Virus record (IMG/VR): IMGVR_UViG_2617271086_000002
Location: 1 to 34,445 of that record
Length of the DNA stretch: 34,445 nucleotides
Direction: 5' to 3' (one strand)
From: a virus
Taxonomy: Duplodnaviria > Heunggongvirae > Uroviricota > Caudoviricetes
Positions 6,750 to 23,968 of this stretch are shown here, piece after piece. A model generated the notes under the pieces. That model made no database searches and was not told the origin of the DNA. It worked only from the letters and a program-made list of their open reading frames with translations. Made by a program: the position numbers and the translations under genes. Every line of letters starts with the position of its first letter. Positions within the stretch are counted from its first letter, which is position 1.

Positions 6750-7400
6750 TCACCTTCCCAGAAATAAATTGCTCAGATACCCATCGACAGTGGTGACACC
6801 TTTTTGCGCTATCTGTGGCAGCGATTTCAGAATGGAATTATTCGGCGGCACCGTTGTTTTGGTGCCTGTATTCTGCACAGCAGACGTTCCGACTCCCTCG
6901 GTCATATTGTTTTTCGAGGCAACCCTGATTGACTGCGTGGAGGTAATAATCACCTCCCTGAGGGTAAGGGTCGCCAGAAGCACATTTTCACTACTCTTAT
7001 CGGTCGTGACCTCCAGCGTTTTTATCAACATATTGTTGTAAATACGCTTGCCGGTTGTCACATCGAAAGGAATACGATTCCGCTGCAGGTTAAGCAGTTC
7101 CTGATACAGTTCTTTCGGGCTCAGACCCAGTAAACTGGTAGCCGTCAGGTTACTGGCAAAATCAAGCAGCGATCCGCCTCCGGAAAAACCGGTTTCCATC
7201 ACAACCTCAGAAGGGCGCCTGAATGCGTGTTCTGATATATAACCAGCGCCCTCACCACTGGCACCAGCATTCGTGGGCTGTTCAACCGGATGTTCCGTAA
7301 TTTCCAGGGCGTCAGTGTGCTTTTCGGTAATAACCACATCAGGAATAATGATTCCTATTGAGCGGGTTCGCTGCTGCAGTAAAACAGATAAAAAGTCCAT
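6750..7400 (-). CDS. Tail/baseplate assembly protein, hypothetical
   Basis: 216 aa ORF immediately downstream of the tape measure gene, with start/stop abutting it at 7400. Confidence 0.4.
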   Translation of the reverse strand: MDFLSVLLQQRTRSIGIIIPDVVITEKHTDALEITEHPVEQPTNAGASGEGAGYISEHAFRRPSEVVMETGFSGGGSLLDFASNLTATSLLGLSPKELYQELLNLQRNRIPFDVTTGKRIYNNMLIKTLEVTTDKSSENVLLATLTLREVIITSTQSIRVASKNNMTEGVGTSAVQNTGTKTTVPPNNSILKSLPQIAQKGVTTVDGYLSNLFLGR

Positions 7401-9406
7401 TACGCAGGTCCTTTCAATTGCTGTACCGCCCTGGCATTTACAGCCCCCTGCTTGTCAGCGATCAGATTAGCCGCCTCCTGAGGGTTGTTAACTCCATGAA
7501 CATTTATAACAGTCTGCTGGTTAAGGCTGCCAGCGGCGGCCTGATACGCCAGCGGGCTGTTCCAGTTTGAATAACCTTCTTTGCGCGCCATCGACTGCAT
7601 CAATGCTCCCATAGTCTGGGGATCTGTAAGATTCAATATTGCATTCGGTGATACTCCCATCCATTTCGCAACATCCTGTGCATACTTTTTCGGATCGTTG
7701 TTATCACCTGCCGGGGCCCAGGTACTGACAATATCCTGAATAGTCTGTAATGCCCGTCCGGTTGTTTTCCCGGTAAAGTAACGCATGAGCTGGTTTTTCA
7801 TCGCCTCCCAGCCCTCAAGAGCTGATTCGAAAAACCGGAACCCTTTACCGCTCACCGGGCGAATGTTCCCTGGGTTATTGTTGCGATCAGCAAGAGTACC
7901 GCCGCCGGGGATGTCGGGCTGGACGTTGGAGCCATGCACTACACCGTTACTCTGTCCCTGCCGGACAACTTTACCGGGTCCCCCGTGCAACCAGTCCATC
8001 CACGCAGGCCATTCACGGACCTCACTGACATCCCTGCGTCCGATATCTGTTTTTATACCAATAGCAGCCAGCGTGTCGCCGATAATTCGCTTCGTATACC
8101 TCAGTGAAGATTTTGCGCTATCGGCAATATTTTCTCTGTCACTAACAATATAGCCCGCGTAAAGCGCCCACAATTTAAGCCATGGTGGGACCGGTAAACC
8201 TGATATTTTTCCGAAAGCCCCCAGAACCTTGGATACCCAGACACCCGCGATGAATGTACCGAGGATTTCCAGTGCATTTTGCCAGCCGCCAACACCATCT
8301 TTTAGTTCCAGAAGGTGATCACGAAGCCAGGTGATCGCATCCTTCGCTTTATCTATTGCCGGTTGCCATTTTTCCCAGTCGATAAGACTGTTACCGCCTT
8401 CTTTCCATGTTTTGTAGTCTTCCCACAAGAGACCGAGAGCAACGATCAGACCGGTAATCAGCCCTATAGGTGACATCCAGAAAGTAGAGTTAAGTATCCG
8501 CATGGCGACAACCAGACCGCCGATAACCTCTATCAGGGTTTTCGTTTCGGCATCCAGTTTCCCCCACCACTCGATGATATCTCCGACACCATCGACTATC
8601 CGAAATGCTACCCGCCCGACTATCTCACCCAGCCAGAGGATCCCCTTTATGACCTTTGTGATGGTGACTTCAATTTTGGGAAAATTTTCAATTATCTTTT
8701 TGCGCAGGTTATCAATCTGCCCCGCCAGTCCGTCCGCAAGATTCGATCCGATTTTGTCCCGCGCCATCCCGGCCATTTCACCGAGCGATTTCAGCGAGGT
8801 CATAAACCGGTTTGACGATAAGGCAGCCTGATCGGCATTAAATCCGATCGCTTTCACCATTTCTGAATACTGAGCGCTGAACTGCCCCACTCCGCGACGC
8901 ATAGCCATCAGGGTATTTTCGTCAATGCCCAGCATCTGCGCATACTGGTTAGCCCGGTAATACGGCATGCTGCTGAGCTTCTGGCCGACGCCCGTAAAGA
9001 TAGCGGCCATGTCGCGCATGTTACCGCTGGCGTCACGGGTCTGTACCCCCAGACGATTCAGAAATCCCTCCGCCCCAGGATTATTACGAATAAACCGGGA
9101 GAGGTTTTCCAGAGAAGATCGCGCAGCGTCCACGCTGCCGCCAACCTGCGAAACCGCATAGCCAATAGACTGAATTCCCTGGACTGTCGCGCCGGTGCGC
9201 TGTGACGCCCAGTAAAGATTATCCAGGCCGGAGGCAATCTTAGCCGTAAAGGCCACCACGGACAGTGCAGCTCCTTCAACGGCCAACCCCATTTTGATGA
9301 CATTTGCAGTTGTACCGGCGAGGACAGAACAGAACTTTTTCGCGCCTGCCTCATCCACACTGAAGCCAAGCGAGACGAGGAAATCTTTAATAGTTTCAGC
9401 GTTCAT
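7400..9406 (-). CDS. Tail tape measure protein. Start set at the ATG at 9404-9406, which has a GGAGAGAGG ribosome-binding site; the ORF track uses an upstream TTG at 9427.
   Basis: 668-675 aa ORF with an Ala/Gly-rich helical N-terminus and hydrophobic central segments, located after the tail chaperone. Confidence 0.8.
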   Translation of the reverse strand: MNAETIKDFLVSLGFSVDEAGAKKFCSVLAGTTANVIKMGLAVEGAALSVVAFTAKIASGLDNLYWASQRTGATVQGIQSIGYAVSQVGGSVDAARSSLENLSRFIRNNPGAEGFLNRLGVQTRDASGNMRDMAAIFTGVGQKLSSMPYYRANQYAQMLGIDENTLMAMRRGVGQFSAQYSEMVKAIGFNADQAALSSNRFMTSLKSLGEMAGMARDKIGSNLADGLAGQIDNLRKKIIENFPKIEVTITKVIKGILWLGEIVGRVAFRIVDGVGDIIEWWGKLDAETKTLIEVIGGLVVAMRILNSTFWMSPIGLITGLIVALGLLWEDYKTWKEGGNSLIDWEKWQPAIDKAKDAITWLRDHLLELKDGVGGWQNALEILGTFIAGVWVSKVLGAFGKISGLPVPPWLKLWALYAGYIVSDRENIADSAKSSLRYTKRIIGDTLAAIGIKTDIGRRDVSEVREWPAWMDWLHGGPGKVVRQGQSNGVVHGSNVQPDIPGGGTLADRNNNPGNIRPVSGKGFRFFESALEGWEAMKNQLMRYFTGKTTGRALQTIQDIVSTWAPAGDNNDPKKYAQDVAKWMGVSPNAILNLTDPQTMGALMQSMARKEGYSNWNSPLAYQAAAGSLNQQTVINVHGVNNPQEAANLIADKQGAVNARAVQQLKGPA

Positions 9407-9635
9407 TATCCTCTCTCCATTTCTCAATGCGCCGCTGGTTATCCGCTTTTACCGCCAGATGGTCATTCAAGAGAGCAATGTCGTACAAATCGACAGAGCC
9501 ATCTTTAAGTGCTGTATAAGGAATTAACCCGGCGTCAACCGGATTGAGAAGGTAAGACAGCCCGTCCGGCAGGCTGTTAAACGTCAGCCCTGTTGCAGGC
9601 TCTGCGCCGTGCTGGTAAGGGGTGTAGGCAAAAAA
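9396..9635 (-). other. Programmed -1 ribosomal frameshift site and GT-type extension of the tail assembly chaperone
   Basis: The mRNA heptamer U_UUU_UUG (plus 9629-9635) is in the zero frame as AAU UUU UUG, 15 codons before the stop. The -1 frame is then open for 77 codons (AYTPYQHGAEPATGLTFNSLPDGLSYLLNPVDAGLIPYTALKDGSVDLYDIALLNDHLAVKADNQRRIEKWREDNER) and stops at 9396-9398, just past the tape measure ATG. Confidence 0.6.
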
Positions 9636-10036
9636 TTTCCCAGCGAATCGGCGACCACCCGCGCCACCAGCTGCAGCATGGTTAGCAGGTCGATATCATC
9701 GAACATCAGCTGACCGCTGTTGAATACCGGCGTCCATCCGTCCATGTGCTTACGTGACACTACGGCCAGGCAAGGATGAATAATCGCACTGGTGTCATCT
9801 TCGGTCAGGGAAGACAGTTCCTCAGCGATACGCGGGAGCATGGTTTCAAACACCGGTTTTAACTGCTCGAATTTCACGGTGTCGATTTTGCCATCAGCAG
9901 GCAAACGGGAGCGAATGCTCCCGAAATCTGACATCATTCCTGCCAGCACAGGCAGAAGTTTGCGGGTCACTTTCAGCTGATCAAAAACGCTGAGTTTTGC
10001 CGCGCGATATTTCACGCCTTTGATTTCGAATTCCAT
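9584..10036 (-). CDS. Tail assembly chaperone (G-like product, zero frame)
   Basis: 150 aa ORF between the tail tube and tape measure genes. It contains the slippery heptamer near its 3' end. Confidence 0.65.
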   Translation of the reverse strand: MEFEIKGVKYRAAKLSVFDQLKVTRKLLPVLAGMMSDFGSIRSRLPADGKIDTVKFEQLKPVFETMLPRIAEELSSLTEDDTSAIIHPCLAVVSRKHMDGWTPVFNSGQLMFDDIDLLTMLQLVARVVADSLGNFLPTPLTSTAQSLQQG

Positions 10037-10039
10037 GTA

Positions 10040-10480
10040 TTAAAACTCCCCGAGAACCTGGTCAATCTTGCCGCAGTCAAACACCCACGGCATCGTATTA
10101 CCGGTTTTAGCGTTGGCATTATCCGGTTGTTTCTGGAACGCAACACTACGTGCCGTGATGATGTCGCCGCTGACCTTGTTTCGGATCACAATAACGTTAT
10201 TCCCCCATGTGGCAGAAGACTGGCTCTGTGCGTTATACGCCAGCGACAATTTTTTATTTGTCGGTGATGTCTTCAGAAGGTTAACGGTAATCGTCCCGCT
10301 TTTATCTGCATGGAGACTGTGCATCACTTCGCCATCAGCACCGATGGTCATGGTGTTTTTAGGGCCGCCCATCGCAACCACAATCCCCTCTTCAGAACTT
10401 GCAGAACCGTACCCGAGGTCAATCGAACCGGTCGGCCCGGTCAGCGTCGCAGTGACATCCATAAAAGAATAGGTAGACAT
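10040..10480 (-). CDS. Tail tube protein
   Basis: 146 aa ORF immediately downstream of the sheath gene. Confidence 0.65.
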   Translation of the reverse strand: MSTYSFMDVTATLTGPTGSIDLGYGSASSEEGIVVAMGGPKNTMTIGADGEVMHSLHADKSGTITVNLLKTSPTNKKLSLAYNAQSQSSATWGNNVIVIRNKVSGDIITARSVAFQKQPDNANAKTGNTMPWVFDCGKIDQVLGEF

Positions 10481-10490
10481 TCACTTCCCC

Positions 10491-11636
10491 TTAGCGAACA
10501 ACGTTAATCTGTACGTCAGCGTAATGAACCGCGCCTGCAAGTTTTATTGCAGCCTGAATCACCGGAGCCTTACGGGCTTCACGTTCTGATTGTGCCTGTT
10601 CATCCAGCGGCTGGGCGTATACGTAATAACCTTTGGGCAGCGTGTCACCTGATGACAACTGGCCAAGGTCGCCCCCGTTCCATACGCCCGGAGCAATCAG
10701 TCCATTCTGAACGGCCTGATCCAGTGATTTTTCAACATTTGATAACAGTCGGGTAATACCGGCTTCAGTCTGGGGAACTTTCGTGGCGCTGGTATAAAGC
10801 AGGTTATAGAGGTTGGTCTGCACATAATTCTGTAACCAGTCCAGGCCGTGGCGTTCATCAAAGAAATCGCCGTTAGCCATCACTCCCTGCTGGAGGATAG
10901 CTGTATCATTCTGGTAGTACACGAACACATTGCAGTTTTTTGCATCAAGTGCCGATGCCTGGCTGACTGTCAGTGTTTCATACCCGACACCCGGCTCCTG
11001 CTTAAACTTGAGCGTAATCGCGGTATTACTGCCATTGAAATTAACCGTGAATGCCCGGCCAAATGCAGATAACGCAGCGTATTTATTACCCGATGAATAC
11101 TGAATAAAACTGCGTGAATATCCGGCGGTTTTCAGTTTTGATGCCAAATCATCGCTGGATGCAGTCTGCAGGCATTTCTCATCGCTTGTCGTAATCGCCA
11201 GAATACGGCTTACAGAAGAGGATTCGATCGCCGCAGCCACTTTCAGCCAGTCTGCATCCGGAATATCTTCATCGTCTGCAATCCCCAGCCCATACCATGA
11301 AGTATAATCGAGCATGGCATTCACAGCCTGCTCCAGCGTCTCAGTCGTGGCCTGTTCGCTGTCTCCCTTCGTTTTCACCCAACGACCAACAAAAACCTCC
11401 TGAGGTTTCGGTGATTGTGAGAAAAACACCTGCGCAGCCTTATATTCTGGTGATTCCACGCCAAAATCTTTTCCAATATCTTCCGCGGCAGAATAACGAC
11501 GAATGCGCTCACTTACCGGAATGATTGTGGACGGGCCGAGAATGAGTAATGCACCAAAATTTCGCCCTGATGCTGCACGCGGCGACATGATCACATCAAC
11601 ATTAACAACGTTTGATACAGGCAAGCCCTGTGCCAT
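10491..11636 (-). CDS. Tail sheath protein (contractile tail)
   Basis: 381 aa ORF upstream of the tube gene; size and position fit a myovirus sheath. Confidence 0.7.
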
Positions 11637-23812: not shown

Positions 23813-23888
23813 TGGTGCTGGTTAACGGACTTGAACCGCTACCCATTCGCTTACAAGGCGACTGCTCTACCATTGGAGCTAAACCAGC
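23813..23888 (-). tRNA. tRNA with anticodon UGU (tRNA-Thr), 76 nt including encoded CCA
   Basis: Minus-strand sense sequence GCTGGTTTAGCTCCAATGGTAGAGCAGTCGCCTTGTAAGCGAATGGGTAGCGGTTCAAGTCCGTTAACCAGCACCA. It has a 7 bp acceptor stem, GG in the D-loop, anticodon loop CTTGTAA, T-loop TTCAAGT and a 3' CCA. Confidence 0.7.
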
Positions 23889-23893
23889 ATATT

Positions 23894-23968
23894 TGGCGGG
23901 ACAGCGTGGACTCGAACCACGATAAGAAGGTTAACAGCCTTCCGTAATGACCTTTATACGACTGACCC
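23894..23968 (-). tRNA. tRNA-like gene with anticodon GUU (tRNA-Asn), 75 nt. It has two U-U mismatches and could be a degenerate copy.
   Basis: Minus-strand sense sequence GGGTCAGTCGTATAAAGGTCATTACGGAAGGCTGTTAACCTTCTTATCGTGGTTCGAGTCCACGCTGTCCCGCCA. It has a perfect anticodon stem (GAAGG/CCTTC), loop CTGTTAA, T-arm CGTGG-TTCGAGT-CCACG and CCA; acceptor pair 4-68 and D-stem pair 13-22 are U-U. Confidence 0.5.

What the first reader, a model, noticed from the sequence alone, without database searches (positions are those of the whole stretch)
9396..9635. Canonical -1 programmed frameshift (U_UUU_UUG) giving a GT-like fusion in the tail assembly chaperone
Fifteen codons before the chaperone stop the mRNA contains the slippery heptamer U UUU UUG in the correct X_XXY_YYZ register. 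The -1 frame is then open for 77 codons and terminates a few nucleotides after the tape measure start. An open frame of that length is unlikely by chance, and the position between tube and tape measure matches the conserved G/GT arrangement of tailed phages.
Basis: partly seen in the sequence, partly recalled or inferred. Interest (0 to 1): 0.5.

Follow-up and report, generated by a model that had tools for sequence, protein, structure and literature searches.

The report
Tail chaperone -1 frameshift, P2-like
An E. coli prophage with a contractile tail makes a long form of its tail assembly chaperone by slipping back one base at a run of U's, the same well-known trick as phage P2 and lambda; it is real but ordinary, and genome databases mostly mis-annotate it.

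Summary
The heptamer U_UUU_UUG lies at 9635..9629 in the correct register of a 150-aa tail assembly chaperone gene (10036..9584, Pfam Phage_TAC_15). This gene sits between the tube gene and the tape measure gene. After a -1 slip the frame stays open for 77 codons and stops at 9398..9396, 11 nt inside the tape measure gene.

The -1 part is real coding sequence: it matches Pfam DUF6889 at E=1e-20. In 69 of 69 evaluable related loci (chaperone identity 48-100%) it lies in the -1 frame. U6 is invariant in 109 of 109 distinct sequences, with no synonymous change. In 73 of 109 the -1 ORF has no start codon upstream of the conserved domain. Purifying selection switches from frame 0 to frame -1 exactly at the heptamer.

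No conserved downstream RNA structure was found, as reported for phage P2 E/E+E', which uses the same heptamer. The heptamer is part of a longer tract, G_GGA_AAU_UUU_UUG, that holds three overlapping in-register heptamers. Each one is weak alone in published E. coli reporter data.

A homologous locus in Klebsiella phage Mulock is already annotated as a frameshift product. RefSeq instead calls a stand-alone "DUF6889 family protein" with a CTG start. Verdict: a genuine new member of a known kind, of low novelty.

The parts
10491..11636 (-). Tail sheath gene (381 aa)
   Evidence: Pfam DUF3383 E=6e-101 and phrog_205 'tail sheath' E=1.5e-135
10040..10480 (-). Tail tube gene (146 aa)
   Evidence: Pfam PF11681 (KPP10_Orf10, shown as Phage_Tube_PhiTE) E=9e-61; PGAP name DUF3277
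9584..10036 (-). Tail assembly chaperone, short (zero-frame) product, 150 aa, the 'G/E-like' form
   Evidence: Pfam Phage_TAC_15 E=9.6e-32 and phrog_1688 'tail assembly chaperone' E=4e-65; ORF listed
9629..9641 (-). Slippery tract G_GGA_AAU_UUU_UUG: three overlapping in-register heptamers. The core U_UUU_UUG is at 9635..9629
   Evidence: Register shown. U6 is invariant in 109/109 distinct sequences, AAU in 105/109, GGA in 104/109. The full 13-mer is present in 93/109
9396..9629 (-). -1 frame extension ('T/E'-like' part): 77 codons plus the TGA stop at 9398..9396
   Evidence: No ATG/GTG/TTG ORF of at least 40 aa covers it. phrog_4364 E=1.8e-23. Amino-acid identity over the first 8 post-slip codons is 0.71 in the -1 frame and 0.37 in frame 0
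9405..9521 (-). DUF6889 domain (residues 37-75 of the -1 part, residues 173-211 of the fusion)
   Evidence: Pfam PF21829 E=1.2e-20 on the -1 part alone and 8.8e-20 on the 213-aa fusion
9396..10036 (-). Predicted 213-aa fusion (long form): residues 1-136 from frame 0 and 137-213 from frame -1
   Evidence: The same protein is encoded in a single frame by a T7 variant of the tract in one assembly (P0001/L152)
7400..9406 (-). Tape measure gene (668 aa from ATG 9406). Its start is overlapped by 11 nt by the end of the -1 ORF
   Evidence: phrog_2276 'tail length tape measure protein' E=2e-248; C-terminal residues 488-667 also match phrog_873 (endolysin); ATG position

Best explanation
[quoted passage not shown] Most ribosomes read frame 0 to the stop at 9586..9584 and produce the 150-aa chaperone. 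A minority slip back one nucleotide on the U-rich tract GGG-AAA-UUU-UUU-G (9641..9629). The P- and A-site tRNAs on UUU and UUG, or on AAU and UUU, re-pair in the -1 frame. These ribosomes then read 77 further codons and produce a 213-aa long form whose C-terminus is the DUF6889 domain. By analogy with lambda gpG/gpGT and P2 gpE/gpE+E', the shared N-terminal chaperone domain would coat the tape measure protein, and the rare C-terminal domain would recruit the tube protein. The frameshift rate would fix the short-to-long ratio.

Shown here: the geometry, the family matches, conservation of the signal, and the frame-specific selection.
Inferred: that the ribosome (not RNA polymerase) slips, the efficiency, the exact slip codon, and the protein functions.
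For: Geometry and register.
The upstream ORF is a tail assembly chaperone (PF21822 E=1e-31) and the -1 translation is a curated family (PF21829 E=1e-20).
Gene order sheath-tube-chaperone-tape measure.
In 87 close loci and in 69 of 69 evaluable loci analysed in detail (chaperone identity 48-100%, many Enterobacterales genera), DUF6889 is in the -1 frame and extends 59-64 codons past the chaperone stop. The one exception is a rearranged remnant.
In 109 distinct sequences the codons are NNU 109/109, UUU 109/109 (never UUC) and UUG 103 / UUU 5 / UUC 1 (Leu never CUN or UUA), while neighbouring codons vary synonymously. When Asn is replaced by Gly, Asp or Ser, the wobble U is kept.
73 of 109 have no ATG/GTG/TTG in the -1 ORF before the domain. 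PGAP had to use a CTG start.
The most variable codon position moves from position 3 of frame 0 upstream to position 3 of frame -1 downstream of the heptamer. The peptide A-R-T-P-R/Y-Q-R-D is conserved from the first post-slip codon.
P2 uses GGU UUU UUG with the same architecture, and its E+E' stop overlaps the tape measure start by 8 nt. PMC3091744 states that the P2 shift occurs at TTTTTTG without a hairpin.
The homologous Mulock locus is annotated as a frameshift product.
Against: There is no experimental evidence for the fusion protein in this phage group.
U_UUU_UUG, A_AAU_UUU and G_GGA_AAU each gave only 0.07-0.12% frameshifting without a stimulator in an E. coli reporter, against a background of about 0.055% (PMC4066793 Table S3).
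No conserved downstream structure was found (alifold -0.18 kcal/mol with no covariation; the window's own fold has z=-0.32). By eye there is no Shine-Dalgarno-like element at the 6-17 nt spacing used in that paper.
How a useful efficiency is reached is therefore unexplained.
Sequence analysis cannot separate ribosomal from transcriptional slippage.
Confidence: 0.87

Rival explanations
1. Transcriptional slippage. RNA polymerase adds one extra U when copying the T6 run, so a fraction of mRNAs carry U7 and encode the fusion in a single frame. The ribosome does not slip.
For: The invariant element is a homopolymer (T6, and T7 in 5 of 109 sequences). The heptamers are weak ribosomal shift sites in isolation and no stimulator is detectable. 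A T7 DNA variant gives exactly the fusion. A 2022 paper on T4-like chaperone genes, cited but not held in the library, argues for a non-frameshifting route in another phage group.
Against: From general knowledge, productive slippage by E. coli RNA polymerase usually needs runs of about 8-9 or more A/T. The examples I recall for Shigella spa13 and Thermus dnaX use such long runs; the review passages describe both as transcriptional slippage but give no run length.
The register of the run relative to frame 0 is strictly conserved, and the flanking in-register A_AA and G_GG triplets are conserved in 105 and 93 of 109 sequences. These matter for tRNA re-pairing but not for polymerase slippage.
The experimentally studied P2 site with the same heptamer is described as a translational frameshift.
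Confidence: 0.07
2. Independent small gene. The DUF6889 ORF is translated on its own from an internal (possibly non-canonical) start, as RefSeq and several phage records annotate it, and no fusion is made.
For: PGAP and several GenBank records call a separate CDS of 43-78 aa. Some relatives do have an ATG about 27 codons after the heptamer.
Against: 73 of 109 distinct sequences have no ATG/GTG/TTG anywhere upstream of the domain in that ORF, and only 6 of 109 have any candidate start preceded by a Shine-Dalgarno-like motif. The PGAP start in this lineage is CTG. Annotated N-termini are arbitrary, ranging from 43 to 78 aa. The -1 frame is under stronger amino-acid constraint than frame 0 from the first codon after the heptamer, upstream of every proposed start. 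The frame relation and the U6 run would have no reason to be invariant.
Confidence: 0.04
3. Chance open frame. The -1 ORF is a non-coding accident of composition next to a fortuitous heptamer.
For: A -1 run of at least 77 codons occurs at 3.6% of positions in this window's long ORFs, so length alone is weak evidence.
Against: Pfam and PHROG matches at E=1e-20 and 2e-23. Conservation across at least 60 species with a coding-type substitution pattern in the -1 frame.
Confidence: 0.01

Closest known systems
Phage P2 gpE / gpE+E' (-1 frameshift at TTTTTTG in the FETUD tail operon)
   Same: Contractile-tail phage. The chaperone gene lies between the tube gene (FII) and the tape measure gene (T). 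The heptamer is identical, U_UUU_UUG in the same register near the 3' end (GGU UUU UUG in P2, AAU UUU UUG here, and GGU UUU UUG in some relatives). The short conserved C-terminal domain (about 37-40 aa) sits at the very end of the long form. The long-form stop overlaps the tape measure start (8 nt in P2, 11 nt here). No downstream hairpin.
   Different: No detectable sequence homology. P2 is Phage_TAC_7 plus Phage_P2_GpE; this locus is Phage_TAC_15 plus DUF6889 (BLASTP E=15; hhalign probability 0.4%). The proteins here are larger (150/213 aa against 91/142 aa). The slippery tract here extends upstream to G_GGA_AAU_UUU_UUG, whereas P2 has only the single heptamer. The P2 shift is reported as experimentally established; this one is not.
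Phage lambda gpG / gpGT (-1 frameshift at G_GGA_AAG)
   Same: Two chaperone forms from one start. [quoted passage not shown] The ratio of short to long form is set by slip efficiency. The first of the three heptamers here (G_GGA_AAU) differs from lambda's only in the last base.
   Different: Lambda has a non-contractile tail. There was no Pfam hit to a lambda-type family. In the E. coli reporter, G_GGA_AAU is far weaker than G_GGA_AAG (1.05% against 43% with the IS3 pseudoknot).
Klebsiella phage Mulock CPT_Mulock_014/015 (GenBank MN098327)
   Same: True homologue: about 70% nucleotide identity over the locus, about 60% amino-acid identity in the chaperone and 64% in the -1 part, the same GGA AAU UUU UUG, and the same gene order. 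It is already annotated as 'tape measure chaperone' plus 'tape measure chaperone frameshift product'.
   Different: Different host and species. That annotation is a prediction in a database record, and I found no paper analysing it.
Pakpunavirus/Vandenendeviridae chaperone frameshift (Pseudomonas phage Adele paper, PMC12846349)
   Same: Myoviruses related to KPP10, whose structural protein ORF10 names the tube family (PF11681) found here. That paper makes the same argument: the downstream 'hypothetical protein' is really the C-terminal part of the long chaperone form, reached by a -1 shift at a conserved poly-T motif.
   Different: A different conserved motif is reported (GTTTTT). I did not test whether the proteins are homologous.

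Membership tests
Tailed-phage chaperone -1 programmed frameshift (lambda G/GT, P2 E/E+E' type) | The gene pair lies between the major tail/tube gene and the tape measure gene | tested here: met
   Order is sheath 11636-10491, tube 10480-10040, chaperone 10036-9584, tape measure 9406-7400, all on the minus strand
Tailed-phage chaperone -1 programmed frameshift (lambda G/GT, P2 E/E+E' type) | The upstream ORF is a tail assembly chaperone | tested here: met
   PF21822 Phage_TAC_15 E=9.6e-32 and phrog_1688 E=4e-65. The AlphaFold model was too poor (pLDDT 42) to confirm the fold
Tailed-phage chaperone -1 programmed frameshift (lambda G/GT, P2 E/E+E' type) | The second ORF overlaps the 3' end of the first, lies in the -1 frame, and has no conserved start of its own | tested here: met
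   It is in the -1 frame in 69/69 evaluable loci. 73/109 distinct sequences have no ATG/GTG/TTG before the domain
Tailed-phage chaperone -1 programmed frameshift (lambda G/GT, P2 E/E+E' type) | An X_XXY_YYZ heptamer in register inside the overlap, conserved at the nucleotide level among diverged relatives | tested here: met
   U_UUU_UUG at 9635..9629. U6 is present in 109/109 with no synonymous change, while flanking codons vary
Tailed-phage chaperone -1 programmed frameshift (lambda G/GT, P2 E/E+E' type) | Coding constraint moves to the -1 frame at the shift site | tested here: met
   Amino-acid identity 0.71 in the -1 frame against 0.37 in frame 0 over the first 8 post-slip codons; the codon-position entropy pattern flips at the heptamer
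Tailed-phage chaperone -1 programmed frameshift (lambda G/GT, P2 E/E+E' type) | The fusion protein is actually made at a low fixed ratio and is needed for tail assembly | not testable with these tools
   Needs mass spectrometry, a reporter assay and genetics
P2 gpE/E+E' protein families (Pfam Phage_TAC_7 + Phage_P2_GpE) | Sequence membership in these Pfam families | tested here: not met
   P2 E+E' hits PF10109 and PF06528. The proteins here hit only PF21822 and PF21829, even at E up to 10 for the -1 part of relatives. BLASTP E=15; hhalign probability 0.4%
Pfam DUF6889 (PF21829) | Match above the gathering score | tested here: met
   73.4 bits against a cut-off of 23.9, E=1.2e-20, covering residues 37-75 of the -1 part
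Stimulator-dependent -1 frameshift cassettes (dnaX, IS3/IS911 type) | A conserved downstream hairpin or pseudoknot, or an upstream Shine-Dalgarno-like element | tested here: not met
   The consensus fold of 42 diverse sequences is -0.18 kcal/mol with 0 covarying pairs. The window's own fold has z=-0.32. No Shine-Dalgarno-like motif 6-17 nt upstream by inspection
Transcriptional slippage sites | A long homopolymer (about 8-9 or more A/T in enterobacteria, from general knowledge) | tested here: not met
   The run is T6 in 104/109 and T7 in 5/109 distinct sequences. The threshold itself was not verified here

The most novel reading that the evidence does not exclude
The conserved 13-nt tract G_GGA_AAU_UUU_UUG may not be three redundant weak heptamers. 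It could be one extended signal in which tRNAs in all three ribosomal sites (or four successive codons) can re-pair in the -1 frame. That would give a useful frameshift rate with no RNA structure at all, well above what any component heptamer gives in reporters. Alternatively, the recoding may in fact be transcriptional.
Probability: 0.15. Interest if true: 0.35.

Novelty: new member of a known kind. Interest (0 to 1): 0.15.

Why it matters
The main value is for annotation. In this widespread group of enterobacterial prophages and phages (338 of 5,426 complete E. coli genomes hold the locus), the long chaperone form is missing from nearly all records. Its C-terminal part appears instead as a spurious small gene. 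These entries carry a CTG or arbitrary start and are named 'DUF6889 family protein' or, wrongly, 'NTP pyrophosphohydrolase'.

The analysis gives DUF6889 a likely role: the frameshift-dependent C-terminal domain of a Phage_TAC_15 chaperone, analogous to lambda T and P2 E'. It adds little to the biology of frameshifting. The one point of wider interest is that a site with no detectable stimulator, built from heptamers that are weak in E. coli reporters, is very strongly conserved.

Tried and rejected
1. Downstream stimulatory RNA. RNAalifold on 42 diverse sequences and a single-sequence fold found nothing conserved or unusually stable.
2. Structure route. AlphaFold2 on the in-frame fusion P0001 with a 48-row alignment gave pLDDT 42 and pTM 0.26. 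This is too poor to use, so no fold search was run. A sequence search of the PDB found nothing at E up to 10.
3. Remote homology of the -1 part to P2 E'. hhalign probability was 0.4%, with only a shared 'WRE'. Rejected.
4. Phage-encoded tRNA-Asn(GUU) as a possible modulator of slippage on the AAU codon. The tRNA-Thr/Asn pair belongs to a common lambdoid late-region module found in phages with unrelated tails (phage 21, Sf6, BTP1, SfI). None of the listed best matches comes from a phage that shares this tail module. Rejected as coincidence.
5. P0001 as a natural in-frame fusion. It is a T7 variant in a single short-read assembly contig. I cannot tell a homopolymer error from a real mutation, so it is not used as evidence of function.
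6. Primary papers not held in the library: Christie 2002 on P2 and Vladimirov 2022 on T4-like chaperones. Searches for 'DUF6889' and 'Klebsiella phage Mulock' found no papers.
Full report
**What is there**

All genes in this part of the window run on the minus strand. The order is:
- sheath, 11636..10491 (Pfam DUF3383, phrog_205 'tail sheath')
- tube, 10480..10040 (PF11681)
- a 150-aa ORF, 10036..9584
- tape measure gene, from ATG 9406 to 7400 (phrog_2276)

The 150-aa protein is a tail assembly chaperone (Pfam Phage_TAC_15 E=9.6e-32; phrog_1688 E=4e-65).

Reading the minus strand, the zero frame near its 3' end is CUG GGA AAU UUU UUG CCU. TTTTTTG occupies 9635..9629, and its first U is the third base of AAU, which is the X_XXY_YYZ register. 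UUG is followed by 14 sense codons and then the stop. After a -1 slip the frame is open for exactly 77 codons (9629..9399) and stops at TGA 9398..9396, 11 nt past the first base of the tape measure ATG at 9406. The predicted long form is 213 aa.

**Is it more than chance?**

ORF length alone is weak evidence. In this window's long ORFs, 3.6% of -1-frame positions start a run of at least 77 open codons. However, of the 27 in-register XXXYYYZ heptamers in minus-strand ORFs of at least 100 aa, only the cluster at 9641-9629 is followed by a long -1 ORF (77-79 codons; the next best is 39). More importantly, the -1 translation matches a curated family, Pfam DUF6889 (E=1.2e-20, 73 bits against a cut-off of 24), and phrog_4364 (E=1.8e-23). 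It is real coding sequence.

**Comparative evidence**

I collected three sets of related loci:
- 87 loci from annotated phage and E. coli records and from viral contigs
- 63 loci from one genome per species, covering Escherichia, Salmonella, Klebsiella, Enterobacter, Citrobacter, Pantoea, Erwinia, Photorhabdus, Serratia, Rahnella, Arsenophonus, Sodalis and others, with chaperone identity from 96% down to 48%
- one further locus fetched by exact protein look-up

In the 87 close loci and in all 69 evaluable loci analysed in detail, the DUF6889 ORF lies in the -1 frame relative to the chaperone and extends 59-64 codons past its stop. The one exception, L134, is a rearranged remnant in which the ORF is broken inside the domain and no tape measure match was found.

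Across 109 distinct sequences:
- The codon before the Phe codon always ends in U (AAU 105, GGU 2, GAU 1, AGU 1).
- Phe is always UUU, never UUC.
- The next codon is UUG 103, UUU 5 or UUC 1. Leu is never CUN or UUA.
- Neighbouring codons vary freely (GAU 84 / GAC 23; the preceding Ser/Asn position uses seven different codons).
- U6 is kept even when the amino acids around it change.
- 73 of 109 have no ATG, GTG or TTG anywhere in the -1 ORF upstream of the conserved domain, and only 6 of 109 have any candidate start preceded by a Shine-Dalgarno-like motif.

The substitution pattern switches frame exactly at the heptamer. Upstream, nucleotide entropy is highest at codon position 3 of frame 0 (1.05, against 0.27 and 0.35 at the other positions). 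In the 24 nt downstream, it is highest at position 3 of the -1 frame (1.39, against 0.79 and 0.58). Mean pairwise amino-acid identity over the first eight post-slip codons is 0.71 in the -1 frame (consensus A-R-T-P-R/Y-Q-R-D) and 0.37 in frame 0. This is the signature expected if ribosomes enter the -1 frame at the tract, and it argues against downstream initiation.

**Anatomy of the signal**

The heptamer is the 3' end of a longer conserved tract, G_GGA_AAU_UUU_UUG (9641..9629). The full 13-mer is present in 93 of 109 distinct sequences. It holds three overlapping in-register heptamers: G_GGA_AAU, A_AAU_UUU and U_UUU_UUG. GGA is used for Gly in 104 of 109 sequences and AAU in 105 of 109, which is what keeping A_AAU_UUU requires. 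Only U6 is invariant. Four lineages have GGC GGU, GGU GAU or GGC AGU before UUU UUG, which leaves a single heptamer as in P2. Five have U7 and one has UUUUUUC.

A slip on A_AAU_UUU, or a P-site-only slip, would put Phe at residue 136. Tandem slippage on U_UUU_UUG would put Leu there. Everything downstream is identical either way. The Atkins review discusses the same ambiguity for U_UUU_UUA.

No conserved RNA structure follows the tract. RNAalifold on 42 sequences, each less than 90% identical to the others, gives -0.18 kcal/mol with two invariant pairs and no covariation. The window's own 100 nt fold no better than shuffles (z=-0.32).

**How it most likely works**

The best explanation is a -1 ribosomal frameshift that yields a minor long form alongside the major short form. 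Functions follow by analogy with lambda gpG/gpGT (summarised in PMC5009743) and P2 gpE/gpE+E'.

One caveat needs stating. In the systematic E. coli reporter study of Sharma et al. (PMC4066793, Table S3; background), the values were:

| Heptamer | No stimulator | IS911 stimulators | IS3 pseudoknot |
|---|---|---|---|
| U_UUU_UUG | 0.118% | 0.247% | 0.765% |
| A_AAU_UUU | 0.070% | 0.355% | 11.4% |
| G_GGA_AAU | 0.069% | 0.112% | 1.05% |
| No-motif background | about 0.055% | – | – |

Each component is therefore weak without a stimulator, and none is detectable here. Natural context clearly matters, though. Lambda's G_GGA_AAG gave only 0.28% without a stimulator in the same assay, yet lambda maintains roughly a 30:1 ratio of gpG to gpGT. 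How the needed efficiency is reached here is not explained by my data. The extended tract is one candidate.

**Rivals**

- Transcriptional slippage on T6 cannot be excluded from sequence alone. It is disfavoured because the run is short, because its register and the flanking in-register triplets are conserved (these matter for tRNA re-pairing, not for the polymerase), and because the identical P2 site is described as translational.
- Independent translation of a small DUF6889 protein is what RefSeq annotates. It is contradicted by the lack of start codons, by the CTG start PGAP had to use, by the arbitrary N-termini of database entries (43-78 aa), and by the constraint on the -1 frame upstream of every proposed start.
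- A chance ORF is excluded.

**Comparison with what is known**

P2 is the closest in mechanism and architecture. In P2 the sequence is GUC GGU UUU UUG, in register, near the 3' end of E. The 142-aa E+E' ends 8 nt inside the tape measure gene T. Pfam sees Phage_TAC_7 plus a 37-residue C-terminal Phage_P2_GpE domain. PMC3091744 states that the P2 shift occurs at TTTTTTG and that no hairpin follows it.

The proteins here are not detectably homologous to P2's (BLASTP E=15; hhalign probability 0.4%). This locus works like P2 E/E+E' but belongs to different families (Phage_TAC_15 plus DUF6889).

A true homologue, Klebsiella phage Mulock (about 70% nucleotide identity, the same GGA AAU UUU UUG), is already annotated in GenBank with a joined 'tape measure chaperone frameshift product'. 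I found no paper on it or on DUF6889. A 2025 paper makes the same kind of argument for Pakpunavirus chaperones with a conserved GTTTTT motif.

**Annotation state**

All 15 listed E. coli RefSeq hits, out of 338 genomes with the locus, carry a separate 'DUF6889 family protein' CDS. In the best hit it starts at CTG. Among the 25 matching phage records, the names listed under the match point to a frameshift product only in Mulock. The seven records I opened either leave the region empty (SEN34, YP3, EKP1), call it 'hypothetical protein' (yong1), or call it 'NTP pyrophosphohydrolase' (ST11-VIM1phi8.3). In the 5.8-billion-protein collection, DUF6889 appears in only 28 clusters. All but one are fragments of 43-78 aa, and the exception is a 108-aa entry that also carries a second Pfam domain. 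Separately, one 213-aa in-frame fusion exists (P0001). It comes from a T7 variant in a single assembly.

**Verdict**

This is a genuine, strongly conserved chaperone frameshift of the P2/lambda kind in a phage group where it is mostly unannotated. It is a new member of a known kind, and interest is low (0.15). Its practical value is in correcting annotation and assigning a role to DUF6889.

Noticed in passing
window 9396-9560 (-); L001 2441-2605: RefSeq/PGAP annotates the -1 extension as a stand-alone 54-aa 'DUF6889 family protein' that starts at a CTG codon. Elsewhere the same fragment carries the unsupported name 'NTP pyrophosphohydrolase', which has spread through NCBI records.
   Followed up: yes
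L152 1896-1912 (Logan SRR23924998 contig): One assembly has GGGAAATTTTTTTG (T7 instead of T6). This puts the chaperone and DUF6889 in a single 213-aa ORF (P0001, junction GNFFAYT). It could be a homopolymer sequencing error or a real +1 mutation; only one contig carries it.
   Followed up: partly
window 23813-23968 (-): The prophage carries tRNA-Thr(UGU) and tRNA-Asn(GUU). The pair is 98-100% identical to the tRNA pair in the late region of many lambdoid and P22-like phages (phage 21, Sf6, BTP1, SfI) that have different tails. This shows the prophage is a mosaic, and the pair is unrelated to the AAU codon in the slippery tract.
   Followed up: yes
window 7400-9406 (-), residues 488-667 of the tape measure protein: The C-terminal third of the tape measure protein matches endolysin and transglycosylase PHROGs (phrog_873, phrog_7182). 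PGAP names the whole gene 'lytic transglycosylase', so the tape measure appears to carry a cell-wall-degrading domain.
   Followed up: no
L134 (Izhakiella australiensis NZ_MRUL01000024) about 1857-2633: Here the -1 ORF runs 256 codons. The DUF6889 domain is cut after '…DGSVDLAD' and fused to unrelated sequence, and tblastn with the first 300 residues of the tape measure protein finds no match in the locus. It looks like a rearranged or decayed prophage remnant that still keeps the U7 tract.
   Followed up: partly
window 9629-9641 (-) and homologous positions in 109 distinct sequences: Gly is encoded by GGA in 104 of 109 sequences, and the full 13-mer GGGAAATTTTTTG is present in 93 of 109. Selection therefore appears to act on more than the single heptamer. 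Whether the upstream heptamers contribute to slippage is unknown.
   Followed up: partly
window 9587-9628 (-), zero-frame tail of the short chaperone: The 11-16 residues of the short form after the slip site are Pro/Thr/Ser/Glu/Gln-rich and poorly conserved (for example PTPLTSTAQSLQQG, KELPDNEKVAPSPQA). This part of frame 0 seems to be mostly a passenger of the -1 frame.
   Followed up: partly
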